64,000 nt of DNA from NCBI RefSeq assembly GCF_003334305.1, contig NZ_QOWS01000007.1. The stretch is one strand, 5' to 3'. A program made the position numbers and the translations under genes. Source of the DNA: Escherichia coli. Lineage in GTDB: Bacteria; Pseudomonadota; Gammaproteobacteria; Enterobacterales; Enterobacteriaceae. Position 1 is the stretch's first letter. The number at the start of each line of letters is the position of its first letter. Under the pieces are notes generated by a model. The model searched no databases. It saw only the letters and a program-made list of their open reading frames with translations, and had not been told where the DNA came from. Of this stretch, positions 1,075 through 56,910 are shown in pieces.

Positions 1075-2109
1075 TTACTTGCTAAACGCAGCCTGGAAGA
1101 CAGCTACCAGCGCGTCGTTCTGACTCTGAGTCAGAGTATGACCTTTCGGATCGATGAACTGTAGGCTGCTGCGGTTATCTAAATCGCCAACCTGCAGTTT
1201 ATAGTCACCGGATGCTAGGCCTGGATCGCTCGCGCCCAGTTCCTGCCAGTCGCTGTCAGACAGCGGCTTATAAGTTACGGCCATGTTGCCCTGCGAACGG
1301 GTGCTGTCGGTCACTTTCATGCCCACTTTTTCCAGCGCCGCTGGCAGACGTTGCCAAACCACATTGAACGGCCCGCGTACGACCAGCATTGGTAAACCGG
1401 TGTCATCAGCTGCACTTTGTACGTCCATAGTGGTGGAGGCACGATTTTGCGCAGCGTTCGCGGCGTCAGTGGCAGATTTATCCAGACCGGCGGAAATAAC
1501 GTTCATCATCTCCGTGCTGTAACGCTGCATGGAAGCCGCGTCTGCAACCGGTTTGCCCGCCTGTTCCAGGTTCAGCAGTTTAACCGTAACCGCCTGCTGA
1601 TAACCCTGCGGCTTAACAGAGATTTGATAACGACCACGATACTGCTCGTCTTCGTCCAGACGGTTCCATTGTACCCAATCGGTGGTCAGTGTCTGACCAG
1701 CATCATCACGTTGGGTGATGGTGTAGTTTTTCGCCTGCAGCACGCTAACCACCTGCGGCCACAGAGTATTGCCACGACCATTTTCCACCAGCAATGAAGC
1801 GGTATCGCCCGTGAACTGGGTACGCGCGCCAGAAACCAGTGCCAGCGGCTGGGCTGGTGGACGAATGTCCAGCGCCTTACCGACAGCACCACTACCGTTG
1901 GTCACCGGGATTGCATAATCACCGGAGGTCACCGGCAAAATCATTCCAGCCGGGGCATGAAGCTCCGCAAGCGGTGCCGCTTCCAGGTAGGCTTCATCAC
2001 CACTGACCTGACGCTTATAGCGTGAGTCAGAACTACAGGCAGCGAGTAATAAAACAAGCGAAACACCCGCAACCTTTGCCAGGCGCGACTTTTGAACAGA
2101 GTAAGCCAT
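1075..2109 (-). CDS. bamC: outer membrane protein assembly lipoprotein BamC (NlpB)
   Basis: ORF 1075..2112; signal peptide with lipobox LLLAAC|SSD; start set at second Met ([12 protein letters not shown]), 344 aa. Confidence 0.9.
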
Positions 2110-4192: not shown

Positions 4193-4387
4193 TTACTTTG
4201 CTCCATTCCGTGCTGGCTGCGCTTGCGGCCAGCATACCTCACTTCTCGTGATCAAGATCACATTCTCGCTTTCCCCTGCGACACGGGTGTCGAATCCATT
4301 TTTTGCTGAACGTTAATGACCATCATTTTTGTACCGTTCAGAATCCAGTCAATACATAACTTATTGAATATATTGAGTTAATCAGAA

Positions 4388-4403
4388 TGGCATCCTTTAT
4401 GCA
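4388..4403 (+). promoter_or_regulatory. sigma-54 (-24/-12) promoter of the hyf operon
   Basis: TGGCAT-N5-TATGCA with GG and GC 12 nt apart, matching the TGGCAC-N5-TTGCA consensus, about 40 nt upstream of the hyfA ATG. Confidence 0.55.
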
Positions 4404-4444
4404 ATATGAAATGCAATGTTTCATATCATTTTCAAGGAGCCGAC

Positions 4445-5062
4445 ATGAACCGCTTTGTGGTGGCCGAACCACTGTGGTGTACAGGATGTAATACCTGTCT
4501 CGCTGCCTGTTCGGACGTGCATAAAACGCAAGGTTTACAGCAACACCCGCGCCTGGCCCTGGCGAAGACGTCAACACTCACTGCCCCTGTCGTGTGTCAT
4601 CACTGTGAGGAAGCCCCTTGCCTGCAGGTCTGCCCGGTTAATGCCATCTCCCAGAGGGATGATGCGATCCAACTCAACGAAAGCCTCTGTATTGGCTGCA
4701 AGCTTTGCGCCGTGGTCTGCCCATTTGGCGCAATCAGCGCTTCAGGAAGCCGTCCGGTGAATGCCCCTGCGCAATATGTTTTTCAGGCTGAAGGCTCACT
4801 CAAAGACGGCGAAGAAAACGTGCCGCCCCAACATGCATTGCTGCGCTGGGAACCGGGTGTCCAGACCGTCGCGGTGAAATGCGACCTGTGTGATTTCTTG
4901 CCAGAAGGTCCGGCCTGCGTTCGCGCTTGCCCGAATCAGGCGTTACGGCTGATCACCGACGATAGCCTGCAACGACAGATGAAAGAAAAACAGCGCCTTG
5001 CCGCAAGCTGGTTTGCCAATGGCGGGGAGGATCCCCTTTCCCTCACTCAGGAGCAACGCTAA
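4445..5062 (+). CDS. hyfA: hydrogenase-4 component A, 4Fe-4S ferredoxin-type subunit
   Basis: ORF 4406..5062; start at MNRFVVAEPLW after an AAGGAG RBS; multiple CxxCxxCxxxCP ferredoxin motifs; 205 aa. Confidence 0.9.
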   Translation: MNRFVVAEPLWCTGCNTCLAACSDVHKTQGLQQHPRLALAKTSTLTAPVVCHHCEEAPCLQVCPVNAISQRDDAIQLNESLCIGCKLCAVVCPFGAISASGSRPVNAPAQYVFQAEGSLKDGEENVPPQHALLRWEPGVQTVAVKCDLCDFLPEGPACVRACPNQALRLITDDSLQRQMKEKQRLAASWFANGGEDPLSLTQEQR

Positions 5063-55570: not shown

Positions 55571-56416
55571 ATGTCCACGACATGGTTTGTAGGAGCCGAC
55601 TGGCTCGCCGAACATATTGATGACCCGGAAATTCAGATTATCGATGCCCGCATGGCGTCGCCTGGACAGGAAGATCGTAACGTTGCTCAGGAGTATCTGA
55701 ATGGACATATTCCCGGCGCAGTGTTTTTTGATATCGAAGCGCTTTCTGATCACACTTCCCCGCTTCCGCACATGCTGCCGCGCCCGGAAACGTTCGCCGT
55801 GGCGATGCGTGAATTAGGCGTTAACCAGGATAAGCACCTGATTGTCTATGACGAAGGTAATCTTTTCTCAGCCCCACGAGCATGGTGGATGCTGCGCACC
55901 TTTGGTGTAGAGAAAGTGTCGATTCTGGGGGGTGGACTTGCAGGCTGGCAGCGCGATGATCTGCTGTTAGAAGAAGGTGCAGTAGAGCTGCCGGAAGGAG
56001 AGTTTAACGCCGCGTTTAATCCTGAAGCCGTGGTGAAAGTAACCGATGTATTATTGGCAAGCCATGAAAATACGGCGCAAATTATTGATGCCCGCCCGGC
56101 TGCACGTTTTAACGCAGAAGTTGATGAACCTCGCCCAGGTTTACGTCGCGGACATATTCCCGGAGCACTGAATGTTCCGTGGACGGAACTGGTGCGCGAA
56201 GGCGAACTAAAAACGACCGATGAACTGGATGCGATATTTTTTGGTCGCGGCGTCAGCTACGACAAACCAATTATCGTCAGCTGCGGCTCTGGTGTAACGG
56301 CAGCCGTGGTTTTGTTAGCACTCGCGACGCTGGATGTGCCAAACGTGAAACTGTACGACGGCGCATGGAGTGAATGGGGCGCGCGGGCAGATTTACCGGT
56401 TGAGCCAGTGAAATAA
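55571..56416 (+). CDS. sseA: 3-mercaptopyruvate sulfurtransferase (rhodanese family)
   Basis: ORF 55412..56416; start at MSTTWFVGADWL after GGAG (281 aa). Confidence 0.9.
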   Translation: MSTTWFVGADWLAEHIDDPEIQIIDARMASPGQEDRNVAQEYLNGHIPGAVFFDIEALSDHTSPLPHMLPRPETFAVAMRELGVNQDKHLIVYDEGNLFSAPRAWWMLRTFGVEKVSILGGGLAGWQRDDLLLEEGAVELPEGEFNAAFNPEAVVKVTDVLLASHENTAQIIDARPAARFNAEVDEPRPGLRRGHIPGALNVPWTELVREGELKTTDELDAIFFGRGVSYDKPIIVSCGSGVTAAVVLLALATLDVPNVKLYDGAWSEWGARADLPVEPVK

Positions 56417-56437
56417 GCTTTATACAGGCAATAAAAA

Positions 56438-56462
56438 ACCGCCGAATTTGGCGGTTTTTTAT
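56438..56462 (+). terminator. rho-independent terminator of sseA
   Basis: aaaaaaccgccgaatttggcggtttttt: 6-bp GC stem followed by T6. Confidence 0.7.
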
Positions 56463-56606
56463 TGCTGGTCTGGTTCGCGGCCTTTCCAGCAGGTTGTATT
56501 ACCGTAGTAATGCAAGCGCGTCTCAGCGGAGACAATACTCGCCAGTAACTCTCTTTTTGTCAAGCAAAAGAGAGTTATTATTGTTCTGTTAGTGTATTAT
56601 CCACTG

Positions 56607-56910
56607 CGGCCCTTTCCGCCGTCTCGCAAGCGGGCGCTGGCTTAAGGAAAGGATGTTCCGCGACCGTTAGAGCAAGCGCGTCTCAGCGCTTGCTATCGCG
56701 GCAATATCGCCAGTGGTGCTGTCGTGATGCGGTCTTCGCATGGACCGCACAATGAAGATACGGTGCTTCTGTATCGTACTTATTGTTTCTGGTGCGCTGT
56801 TTTCCCAAGTAAATAATAACCGGAGTCTCTCCGGCGACAATTTACTGGTGGTTAACAACCTTCAGAGCAGCAAGTAAGCCCGAATGCCGCCCTTTGGGGC
56901 GGCATATTTT
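56607..56910 (+). ncRNA. ryfA: probable RyfA small RNA locus
   Basis: Structured 490-nt sseA-sseB spacer ending in a plus-strand intrinsic terminator (gccgccc-tttg-gggcggc + atatttt) at 56886..56910. From memory, ryfA lies between sseA and sseB; 5' end and strand are inferred. Confidence 0.3.

What the first reader, a model, noticed from the sequence alone, without database searches (positions are those of the whole stretch)
56465..56700. Repeated 17-18 nt motif and two strong hairpins in the spacer between the sseA terminator and the putative ryfA
The motif gcaagcgcgtctcagcg occurs twice (about 56512..56529 and 56673..56690); the second copy sits in a perfect 9-bp stem hairpin (agcaagcgc-gtctca-gcgcttgct, 56671..56694). 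A separate perfect 10-bp A/T-rich hairpin (actctctttt-tgtcaagc-aaaagagagt, 56548..56575) is followed by a T-rich tract and could be a second plus-strand terminator or attenuator, hinting at a short transcript or processing site between sseA and ryfA. There are also near-repeats ggcctttccagcagg / ggccctttccgccg.
Basis: seen in the sequence. Interest (0 to 1): 0.3.

Follow-up and report, generated by a model that had tools for sequence, protein, structure and literature searches.

The report
TimR antitoxin RNA gene beside timP
The sseA–ryfA "spacer" holds the already described gene for TimR, a roughly 96-base antisense RNA read from the opposite strand, and the repeated 17-mer is where TimR pairs with the leader of the toxin mRNA timP (ryfA) to block its translation, so this is an ordinary, known toxin–antitoxin locus.

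Summary
The sequence features are real, but they are parts of a known system, the enterobacterial timP/TimR (ryfA/ryfB) type I toxin–antitoxin locus.

- **17-mer repeat.** It occurs exactly twice, at 56512–56528 and 56672–56688. Copy 1, read on the minus strand, is the 5' seed of TimR (about 56528→56433, 96 nt). TimR ends at the bidirectional sseA terminator.
- **Second copy and GC hairpin.** Copy 2 lies in stem-loop SL2 (56664–56701) of the timP/ryfA 5'UTR, the published TimR-binding site.
- **Comparative support.** Across 17 loci from seven genera the seed and target differ in sequence but stay complementary. 95.9% of cells are paired against 29–48% in shifted registers, and 11 of 20 pairs change on both sides.
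- **Where pairing starts.** It starts exactly at the TimR 5' end predicted from a conserved TTGACA–17–NANNAT promoter.
- **Homology.** The minus strand aligns end to end with the Salmonella TimR used in published experiments. It sits where K-12 timR (b4811) is annotated.
- **A/T-rich palindrome (56546–56577).** It is real but is not a terminator. It lies upstream of both transcription starts, its loop is the timR −35 box, and it is not found outside Escherichia coli.

Novelty: already known. One loose end is a second, weaker TimR–timP complementarity.

The parts
56428..56465 (.). Bidirectional intrinsic terminator (A6-CCGCC...GGCGG-T6). It terminates sseA on the + strand and TimR on the - strand.
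   Evidence: Inverted repeat I1: 19-nt arms, 95% complementary. RNA fold is -26.9 kcal/mol on + (z -8.2) and -25.4 on - (z -9.2). A terminator at the same position follows every TimR homologue examined.
56433..56528 (-). timR gene: TimR antitoxin sRNA, about 96 nt. The 5' end falls at 56526-56528 and the 3' end in the U tract at 56433-56438.
   Evidence: Aligns end to end with the Salmonella TimR reconstructed from the T7 template oligos EHO-1419/1420. It lies next to sseA as K-12 timR b4811 (100 nt) does. Consensus structure over 15 homologues: free 5' seed, two hairpins, terminator. RyfB1/RyfB2 transcripts of about 100 nt were seen by RNA-seq in Shigella (PMC5333039).
56509..56528 (-). TimR seed (TimR nt 1-20). 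It contains repeat copy 1 (56512-56528), which is nt 1-17.
   Evidence: 17 contiguous Watson-Crick pairs with 56672-56688, plus 3 more after one mismatch. Intermolecular covariation is shown. Cognate duplex energy is -37.9 kcal/mol.
56463..56491 (-). TimR hairpin 2: stem UGCUGG/CCAGCA with the invariant loop AAAGGCCGC (56477-56485). It contains near-repeat copy 1.
   Evidence: GCTGGAAAGGCCGC is nearly invariant in 15 homologues from Escherichia to Rahnella. The loop is complementary to the timP 5' end.
56535..56563 (-). timR promoter: -35 TTGACA (56563..56558), 17-nt spacer, -10 GAGTAT (56540..56535). Predicted start is 56528.
   Evidence: TTGACA/TTGACT, a 17-nt spacer and NANNAT are present in all 17 loci although the spacers differ. 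The same spacing rule reproduces exactly the 5' end of the curated K-12 timR and falls within 1-2 nt of the Salmonella TimR 5' end.
56546..56577 (.). Perfect 12-bp A/T-rich palindrome in the untranscribed divergent promoter region. Its loop is the timR -35; its left arm is the timR promoter spacer; its right arm is the timP -35 region.
   Evidence: Present in 4714 of 5426 complete E. coli genomes. Absent from E. whittamii, the other E. coli haplotype and six other genera.
56595..56600 (+). timP (ryfA) promoter -10 element, TATTAT.
   Evidence: A TA(T/C)NAT-like hexamer is conserved at the same distance from the ryfA start in most loci. The Salmonella timP transcript begins GGCCCTTTCC, which corresponds to window 56608 (oligo EHO-1421).
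56606..56910 (+). timP mRNA, previously annotated as the sRNA RyfA.
   Evidence: Rfam RF00126, 317.9 bits, full length 1-296.
56608..56621 (+). timP 5' end and 5' strand of the basal stem of SL1. This is near-repeat copy 2 (ggccctttccgccg).
   Evidence: Rfam consensus pairs 56612-56617 with 56646-56651. Complementary to the TimR hairpin-2 loop: -22.0 kcal/mol, 0.7% of shuffles as good.
56664..56701 (+). timP 5'UTR stem-loop SL2, core 56671-56694. The TimR-binding site is 56669-56688 and includes repeat copy 2.
   Evidence: SL2 is the experimentally probed TimR-binding site in Salmonella (PMC11228461). Covariation is shown.
56752..56877 (+). timP coding sequence: 41-aa small toxic inner-membrane protein.
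   Evidence: NCBIfam NF040796.1 toxic_TimP, 79.6 bits against a cut-off of 45. RefSeq annotates WP_001385884.1 at the 100%-identical locus.

Best explanation
The interval is the antitoxin half, and the start of the toxin half, of the chromosomal timP/TimR type I toxin-antitoxin module (older names ryfA/ryfB, STnc2070).

Proposed mechanism:
- A sigma-70 promoter on the minus strand (TTGACA at 56563-56558, GAGTAT at 56540-56535) drives TimR, about 96 nt. TimR starts at about 56528 and stops at the sseA terminator, which functions in both directions.
- TimR's first 17-20 nt are single-stranded and are the reverse complement of repeat copy 2.
- The divergent timP mRNA starts at about 56606-56608. 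Its 5'UTR folds into stem-loops. SL2 (56664-56701) presents repeat copy 2 on its 5' arm and loop.
- TimR pairs with SL2 and opens it. According to the published Salmonella work, this destabilises the SL1-SL3 pseudoknot needed for ribosome loading, so the toxic 41-aa TimP is not made.
- On the DNA, a direct repeat with one copy transcribed in antisense is how a trans-acting antisense pair appears.

The A/T palindrome is not part of either RNA. It lies in the shared divergent promoter region and is specific to one E. coli haplotype.

Shown here: the anatomy, homology to validated TimR, a conserved promoter and terminator, and seed-target covariation.
Inferred from the literature: transcription in this strain, translational repression, and the pseudoknot mechanism.
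For: - The repeat is exact, unique and far above chance.
- In 17 loci of 7 genera the longest direct repeat between the 700 nt upstream of ryfA and its 5'UTR nearly always maps to upstream -97..-64 and UTR 65-87, while its sequence differs between lineages.
- The intermolecular helix TimR 1-20 x SL2 is 95.9% paired, against 29-48% in registers slid by 1-3. Eleven of 20 pairs change on both sides (57 cells), and 0 of 500 shuffles reach the observed pairing or covariation score.
- Complementarity begins at the column predicted as TimR +1 and is random upstream of it.
- Cognate seed-target duplexes average -36.4 kcal/mol against -22.4 for non-cognate. Fourteen of 19 TimRs rank their own target first, counting ties between identical targets.
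- The timR promoter and terminator are conserved in all loci.
- The minus strand 56528-56430 aligns along its whole length with Salmonella TimR.
- The MG1655 reference annotates timR b4811 at the equivalent place next to sseA. Its 5' end equals my predicted start.
- ryfA and TimP memberships are confirmed.
- Published experiments: compensatory seed mutations, in vitro translation and structure probing of SL2 (PMC7667032; PMC11228461); RyfB1 lowers RyfA1 levels (PMC5333039); TimR detected by northern blot in E. coli CFT073 and CH138 (PMC13188913).
Against: - There are no expression data for this strain. The TimR ends are predicted by homology and promoter geometry, not mapped.
- Direct repeats could in principle be kept alike by gene conversion rather than by selection for pairing. 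However, G-U wobble pairs appear where identity is lost (for example U-G in 5 sequences at one pair), which favours pairing.
- In E. coli the physiological role is unclear. Deleting timR had little phenotype in the avian pathogenic E. coli strain studied, and toxicity of E. coli TimP has not been shown (PMC13188913).
- The simple terminator scan did not list the sseA/TimR terminator. This is probably because its U tract is paired with the A tract in the long palindrome.
Confidence: 0.93

Rival explanations
1. The A/T-rich hairpin followed by a T-rich tract is a second plus-strand terminator or attenuator. It would define a short plus-strand transcript or a processing site between sseA and ryfA, with the repeated motif being part of that RNA.
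For: The lenient terminator scan lists 56544-56579 as terminator-like on the + strand. The hairpin folds better than shuffles (dG -15.4, z -4.2).
Against: - The stem has 3 G-C pairs of 14 and the tail is UUAUUAUUGUU, not a U run.
- The strong sseA terminator lies 80 nt upstream (dG -26.9), so little + strand transcription should arrive.
- No + strand promoter lies between them.
- The hairpin is upstream of both mapped or predicted starts. Its loop is the invariant timR -35 hexamer.
- The arms are absent in E. whittamii, the second E. coli haplotype and six other genera.
Confidence: 0.03
2. The repeats are neutral leftovers of a local duplication. The spacer would be a decayed partial copy of the ryfA 5' region with no function of its own.
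For: - The + strand of timR is colinear with timP 5'UTR nt 1-12 and about 58-83 (ggcc(c)tttcc ... accgt.ag ... 17-mer), which looks like a duplication with an internal deletion.
- K-12 carries a truncated timP remnant (Rfam IS128), showing that duplication and decay do occur at this locus.
Against: - A neutral relic would not keep a consensus promoter and terminator in 17 loci.
- It would not co-vary with its target across genera.
- It would not begin its complementarity exactly at the predicted +1.
- Published genetics and biochemistry show function (PMC7667032).
- A duplication origin is compatible with the best explanation; it would be how the antitoxin arose.
Confidence: 0.02
3. A sub-claim about the palindrome only. 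56546-56577 is an operator for a dimeric DNA-binding protein. Binding would occlude the timR -35 (palindrome centre at about -33.5 of timR) while sitting at about -45 of timP, and so would shift the antitoxin:toxin ratio.
For: - A perfect 12-bp inverted repeat is far beyond chance.
- It is centred on the timR -35, which it flanks symmetrically.
- It is kept in both timR copies of K-12 and in 4714 of 5426 E. coli genomes.
- The authors of the Salmonella work state that the conditions that change the TimR/timP ratio are unknown (PMC7667032, PMC11228461).
Against: - It is not conserved in E. whittamii, in the 13% of E. coli with the other haplotype, or in other genera.
- I recognise no transcription-factor motif in it.
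- No other copy was detected in the genomes searched beyond this locus.
- It may be a recent, neutral, lineage-specific palindrome.
Confidence: 0.1

Closest known systems
TimR/timP of Salmonella enterica (STnc2070/ryfA); timR b4811 and timP b4812 of E. coli K-12
   Same: - Same flanking genes (sseA on one side, sseB on the other) and a divergent arrangement.
- An sRNA of about 96-100 nt that ends in a Rho-independent terminator.
- 17-18 nt of continuous complementarity between the sRNA 5' end and SL2 of the timP 5'UTR, more than 60 nt upstream of the ribosome-binding site.
- The body of the sRNA aligns along its full length.
- The TimP peptide matches NF040796.
   Different: - The seed and target sequence is a different allele. 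The window has GCAAGCGCGTCTCAGCG, K-12 timP has GCAGGTGTTTCACAGCG, and Salmonella TimR starts CUACGGUGUGCC.
- The window has a single timR. K-12 has two, and only the sseA-proximal one is annotated.
- Salmonella has an extra gene (STM2534) between sseA and timP (PMC7667032).
RyfB1/RyfA1 and RyfB2/RyfA2 of Shigella dysenteriae
   Same: - Divergent RNA of about 100 nt upstream of each ryfA.
- Complementarity of 16-17 of 18 nt that overlaps the 'variable region' of RyfA.
- Each RyfB is specific for its own RyfA (PMC5333039). The cognate versus non-cognate energy gap seen here agrees with that.
   Different: - S. dysenteriae has two complete tandem modules; the window has one.
- The Shigella work interpreted both RNAs as non-coding regulators (ompC, virulence) and did not detect a peptide.
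Other divergent, trans-encoded type I toxin-antitoxin pairs: tisB/istR-1, shoB/ohsC, zorO/orzO, dinQ/agrB
   Same: - The antitoxin sRNA is transcribed divergently from an adjacent, non-overlapping gene.
- A short 5' seed of about 18-20 nt pairs far upstream of the toxin ribosome-binding site.
- The toxin is a small membrane peptide.
- The TimR region gives a sub-threshold Rfam AgrB match (29.8 bits against a gathering score of 40).
   Different: - timP mRNA needs no nucleolytic processing. It is activated by a structural switch and pseudoknot (PMC11228461, PMC13000454).
- There is no sequence homology to those families. The AgrB match is below threshold and rests largely on the stem-loop and terminator architecture.

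Membership tests
TimR (STnc2070 / RyfB) antitoxin sRNA of the timPR type I toxin-antitoxin system | Encoded immediately upstream of, and divergently from, timP/ryfA | tested here: met
   ryfA lies at 56606-56910 on +. The candidate lies at 56528-56433 on -, 78 nt from the ryfA start. The arrangement is the same in 17 loci.
TimR (STnc2070 / RyfB) antitoxin sRNA of the timPR type I toxin-antitoxin system | The 5' end carries about 17-18 nt of continuous complementarity to SL2 in the timP 5'UTR | tested here: met
   17 contiguous pairs (56528..56512 with 56672..56688), extending to 20 with one mismatch. Covariation: 95.9% paired and 11 of 20 pairs changed on both sides.
TimR (STnc2070 / RyfB) antitoxin sRNA of the timPR type I toxin-antitoxin system | Followed by an intrinsic terminator, giving an RNA of about 100 nt | tested here: met
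   Terminator hairpin plus U6 on the minus strand at 56460..56433 (dG -25.4, z -9.2). The length of 96 nt compares with 100 nt for b4811 and about 100 nt for RyfB.
TimR (STnc2070 / RyfB) antitoxin sRNA of the timPR type I toxin-antitoxin system | Sequence homology to an experimentally characterised TimR | tested here: met
   Full-length alignment with the Salmonella TimR rebuilt from oligos EHO-1419/1420. It includes the invariant CTGCTGGAAAGGCCGCGAA block.
TimR (STnc2070 / RyfB) antitoxin sRNA of the timPR type I toxin-antitoxin system | Is expressed and represses TimP translation | not testable with these tools
   Only sequence is available here. It was shown in Salmonella (PMC7667032), and TimR was detected by northern blot in E. 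coli CFT073 and CH138 (PMC13188913).
ryfA RNA (Rfam RF00126) / TimP (NCBIfam NF040796) | Covariance-model score above the gathering threshold, and peptide HMM score above the curated cut-off | tested here: met
   317.9 bits against 80. 79.6 bits against 45.
Rho-independent terminator or attenuator (the reading proposed for the A/T hairpin 56546-56577) | G+C-rich stem directly followed by an uninterrupted U tract, inside a transcription unit | tested here: not met
   3 G-C pairs of 14 and a tail of ATTGTTCTGT after TTATT. It lies upstream of both transcription starts. It is not conserved.
AgrB antitoxin sRNA (Rfam RF02891) | Score at or above the gathering threshold of 40 bits | tested here: not met
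   29.8 bits, E 0.0028, on the minus strand at 56430-56511.
IS128 RNA (Rfam RF00125) | Full-length match at 80 bits or more | tested here: not met
   Only the 3' third of the model (positions 134-209) matches, at 39.7 bits, over 56400-56474. K-12 has the full element at 261 bits.

The most novel reading that the evidence does not exclude
TimR may contact timP at two sites.

Besides the seed-SL2 duplex, the invariant loop of TimR hairpin 2 (AAAGGCCGC, 56485..56477) is complementary to the extreme 5' end of timP (GGCC(C)UUUCC, 56608-56617). That is the free 5' tail plus the 5' strand of the basal stem of SL1. TimR's GGAAAGG mimics timP's own partner strand (56646-56652). TimR could therefore take a toehold on the 5' tail and displace the SL1 basal stem.

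The basal stem is required for translation (mutations M7/M7' in PMC11228461). The authors list as unresolved how TimR bound at SL2 destabilises the SL1-SL3 pseudoknot. A second contact would offer an explanation.

The evidence does not exclude this. In the window the duplex is -22.0 kcal/mol and only 0.7% of shuffles are as good. It is weaker in other species (-12.6 to -20.5). There is no informative covariation because both sides are almost invariant. The resemblance may simply be a vestige of the duplication that created timR.
Probability: 0.15. Interest if true: 0.45.

Novelty: already known. Interest (0 to 1): 0.15.

Why it matters
For the scan, this closes the finding. An apparently empty spacer with odd repeats is the antitoxin gene of a published type I toxin–antitoxin system.

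Two practical points follow:
- **Annotation gap.** The automatic RefSeq annotation of the three E. coli loci examined lists timP but not timR. Rfam 15 gave no TimR match above threshold. Tool-free readers and pipelines will therefore keep flagging this region.
- **Seed–target alleles.** The seed–target pair exists as several discrete alleles within E. coli and between paralogues. It is a natural set of orthogonal antisense pairs.

The possible second contact bears on an open mechanistic question about this system, but the evidence for it is weak.

Tried and rejected
1. **Public genome scan.** The pattern taken from the conserved SL4 region was too degenerate. Seventeen enterobacterial loci were still usable.
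2. **Protein search with TimP.** It returned essentially only Escherichia and Shigella sequences plus a couple of Klebsiella-labelled fragments, and no Salmonella TimP. I recovered the Salmonella TimR sequence from the oligo table of PMC7667032 instead.
3. **Whole-length duplex prediction, TimR against the 5'UTR.** It gave -76.8 kcal/mol, but shuffles gave -60 (z only -3.2). Ignoring intramolecular structure inflates the value. I dropped it in favour of seed-only duplexes and covariation.
4. **Promoter/terminator scan.** It missed both the timR promoter (the -10 matches only 3 of 6) and the sseA/TimR terminator. It proposed a + strand promoter, TTGTCA-16-TATTGT, that does not fit the ryfA start. 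I did not use these.
5. **Palindrome as a conserved RNA or DNA element.** Rejected across genera.
6. **Covariation for the second TimR–timP complementarity.** It could not be assessed. The columns are nearly invariant and the pairing register shifts by one base between Escherichia and Yersinia.
7. **AgrB and IS128 Rfam hits in the window.** Both are below threshold.

Full report
**Context**

The window is Escherichia coli chromosome: yfhM, sseA, spacer, ryfA, sseB, pepB. Rfam places ryfA (RF00126) at 56606-56910 on the + strand with 317.9 bits over the whole model. Half of the flagged interval (56465-56605) is therefore upstream of ryfA, and the other half is its 5' end.

**Observation**

- The 17-mer GCAAGCGCGTCTCAGCG occurs exactly twice in 64 kb, at 56512-56528 and 56672-56688, against 0.05 expected even with two mismatches allowed.
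- The GC hairpin is real at 56671-56694, extended to 56664-56701 (dG -22.3, z -5.2).
- The A/T palindrome is longer than reported. It has perfect 12-bp arms at 56546-56557 and 56566-56577, and no shuffle came close.
- The near-repeat ggcc(c)tttcc lies at 56479-56493 and 56608-56621.
- The sseA terminator (56428-56465) is a 19-bp palindrome with an A run on one side and a T run on the other. It folds equally well on both strands (-26.9 and -25.4 kcal/mol).

**What it is**

The literature describes this locus directly.
- A divergently transcribed sRNA, TimR (formerly STnc2070; RyfB1/RyfB2 in Shigella), pairs through its 5' end with the timP 5'UTR and blocks translation. This was shown by compensatory mutations and cell-free translation (PMC7667032).
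- The binding site is stem-loop SL2. Binding destabilises an SL1-SL3 pseudoknot that is required for translation initiation (PMC11228461; PMC13000454).
- In Shigella, RNAs of about 100 nt were seen divergent from each ryfA, with 16-17 of 18 nt complementary (PMC5333039).

A + strand direct repeat in which the upstream copy is transcribed from the minus strand gives exactly such a trans-antisense pair.

**Tests made here**

1. *Homology.* The T7 template oligos in Table S2 of PMC7667032 give the full Salmonella TimR. The window's minus strand 56528→56430 aligns with it end to end, including an identical CTGCTGGAAAGGCCGCGAA block. The Salmonella 5' end falls at window 56526. The curated MG1655 record annotates timR (b4811, 100 nt, minus strand) directly after sseA, plus ryfA and timP.

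2. *Promoter.* In 17 enterobacterial loci located with Rfam, the minus strand carries TTGACA/TTGACT, a 17-nt spacer of unrelated sequence, and a NANNAT -10. In the window these are 56563-56558 and 56540-56535. Placing +1 seven nt after the -10 gives 56528. The same rule reproduces the K-12 b4811 5' end exactly.

3. *Position of the repeat.* In nearly every locus the longest direct repeat between the 700 nt upstream and the 5'UTR maps to upstream -97..-64 and UTR 65-87. Its sequence differs between lineages: GCAAGCGCGTCTCAGCG, CACCCCACAGTG, CAGGCACACCTCAGTG, GCACACTCTCGTGCT, AACGCCAGCACAACCTAGTGC, GCGCAGACTAGCG and others.

4. *Covariation.* On a gap-free alignment of seed plus target from 17 loci (A1), the intermolecular helix TimR 1-20 x SL2 behaves as follows:
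   - 95.9% of cells are paired, against 29-48% when the partner is slid by 1-3 columns.
   - 11 of 20 pairs change on both sides (57 cells).
   - 0 of 500 shuffles reach the observed pairing or covariation score.
   - Pairing is random upstream of the predicted +1 and begins at it.
   - G-U wobbles occur where sequence identity is lost. This argues for selection on pairing rather than mere homogenisation of repeats.

5. *Specificity.* Seed-target duplexes average -36.4 kcal/mol for cognate pairs and -22.4 for non-cognate pairs. The window pair is -37.9.

6. *Structure.* The consensus fold of 15 TimR homologues has a free seed, a small hairpin, a second hairpin (GCUGG/CCAGC) with an invariant loop, and the terminator. 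The window TimR folds the same way.

7. *The toxin gene.* The 41-aa ORF at 56752-56877 scores 79.6 bits against NCBIfam toxic_TimP, cut-off 45.

**The two hairpins**

The GC hairpin is SL2 of the timP 5'UTR, an internal helix of the Rfam ryfA model and the TimR target.

The A/T palindrome is not a terminator or attenuator.
- It lies between the two divergent transcription starts, so it belongs to neither RNA.
- Its 8-nt loop contains the timR -35 hexamer.
- Its left arm is the timR promoter spacer and its right arm covers the timP -35 region.
- Its stem has 3 G-C pairs of 14 and the following T-rich stretch is interrupted.
- It is present in 4714 of 5426 complete E. coli genomes and in both timR copies of K-12.
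- It is absent from E. whittamii, from the second E. coli haplotype and from six other genera, where only the TGTCAAG core is kept.

Its function, if any, is unknown. I give a lineage-specific operator about 10%.

**The near-repeat**

TimR's invariant hairpin-2 loop (AAAGGCCGC) is complementary to the timP 5' end (GGCC(C)UUUCC). It mimics timP's own GGAAAGG strand of the SL1 basal stem. In the window the isolated duplex is -22.0 kcal/mol, and 0.7% of shuffles are as good. Elsewhere it is -12.6 to -20.5, with shuffle fractions of 0.01-0.2. Both sides are almost invariant, so covariation is uninformative.

The + strand of timR is colinear with timP nt 1-12 and about 58-83. The simplest reading is that timR arose by duplication of the timP leader with an internal deletion. 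A second functional contact remains possible. It would bear on the question, stated as unresolved, of how TimR destabilises the pseudoknot.

**Population notes**

- The window-type timR seed region is found in 4548 of 5426 genomes, and the window-type SL2 in 2910.
- K-12 explains part of the difference. It has a 326-bp insertion carrying a second timR. The sseA-proximal, annotated copy has the seed that matches K-12 SL2 (-36.2 kcal/mol). The ryfA-proximal, unannotated copy has the window-type seed (-27.0 against K-12 SL2).
- Between the two copies lies a truncated timP start that Rfam calls IS128.
- About ten E. coli genomes match only part of both probes. In strain fS54a the sseA-timP distance is 176 nt instead of 336. 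That is a 160-bp deletion, exactly the repeat spacing, and it removes both promoters and SL1. Yersinia similis shows the same fused arrangement.

**Verdict**

The feature is already known and is annotated in the K-12 reference. Interest is low.

Noticed in passing
L002 (E. coli K-12-type strain), about 1201-1297 on the minus strand; compare L125 (MG1655): K-12 carries a second, unannotated timR copy next to ryfA, with an intact promoter and the window-type seed. The annotated timR (b4811) is the sseA-proximal copy, and its seed matches K-12 timP better (-36.2 against -27.0 kcal/mol). K-12 may therefore make two TimR species with different affinities for its single timP.
   Followed up: partly
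L002 1035-1243 (+); window 56400-56474 (partial, 39.7 bits): The Rfam family IS128 (RF00125) in K-12 starts with a timP promoter and the first 17 nt or so of timP (ggccctttccgccgt). It then diverges and ends at the terminator of the second timR. It looks like the remnant of a lost second timP copy rather than an independent sRNA.
   Followed up: partly
L124 (E. coli fS54a) 421-597; L117 (Yersinia similis) 4554-4837: The two 17-mer direct repeats appear to mediate deletion. In fS54a the sseA-timP gap is 176 nt instead of 336 (a 160-bp loss, equal to the repeat spacing). This fuses the timR body to SL2 and removes both promoters. About 10 of 5426 E. coli genomes match only part of both probes, and Y. 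similis shows the same fusion.
   Followed up: partly
window 56477-56485 (-) against 56608-56617 (+): The invariant TimR hairpin-2 loop AAAGGCCGC is complementary to the timP 5' end and mimics the 3' strand of the SL1 basal stem. This could be a second contact or a vestige of duplication. I did not find it mentioned in the passages of the papers I read.
   Followed up: partly
window 56546-56577: A perfect 12-bp palindrome is centred on the timR -35 box. It is confined to one E. coli haplotype (87% of complete genomes) and no function is known for it.
   Followed up: partly
L001, L002, L003 (RefSeq automatic annotation) against L125 (MG1655): The automatic RefSeq annotation lists the timP coding sequence but neither timR nor ryfA as RNA genes. 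Only the curated MG1655 record has timR. The Rfam 15 search returned no TimR match at or above a gathering score.
   Followed up: yes
L104 (Pantoea latae) 1439-1519 (+): The Pantoea TimR homologue just passes the Rfam AgrB (dinQ antitoxin) gathering threshold (40.7 against 40 bits). The window's TimR scores 29.8. This is a likely source of mis-annotation. It reflects shared architecture rather than demonstrated homology.
   Followed up: no
L067, L068, L069 (Yersinia pekkanenii): One genome has at least two timPR modules with different seed-target sequences (GCAAGCGCACCCCAGC and AAGCACACCCAAGTGC). Cognate duplexes are -39.6 and -38.3 kcal/mol, against -26.4 and -30.5 for the crossed pairs. The paralogues appear insulated from each other.
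   Followed up: partly
L017 (E. coli SCPM-O-B-8794) and L079 (Escherichia sp. E1V33), upstream -91..-80 of ryfA: A third Escherichia seed-target allele (CACCCCACAG...) comes with a different inter-promoter sequence that lacks the perfect palindrome. It probably corresponds to the roughly 13% of E. coli genomes in the 80-90% identity band.
   Followed up: partly
L117 (Yersinia similis) 4361-4467 (+): The Rfam family Ysr224 (133.9 bits) lies directly upstream of the collapsed timR-timP fusion in Y. similis. I did not examine its relation to the locus.
   Followed up: no
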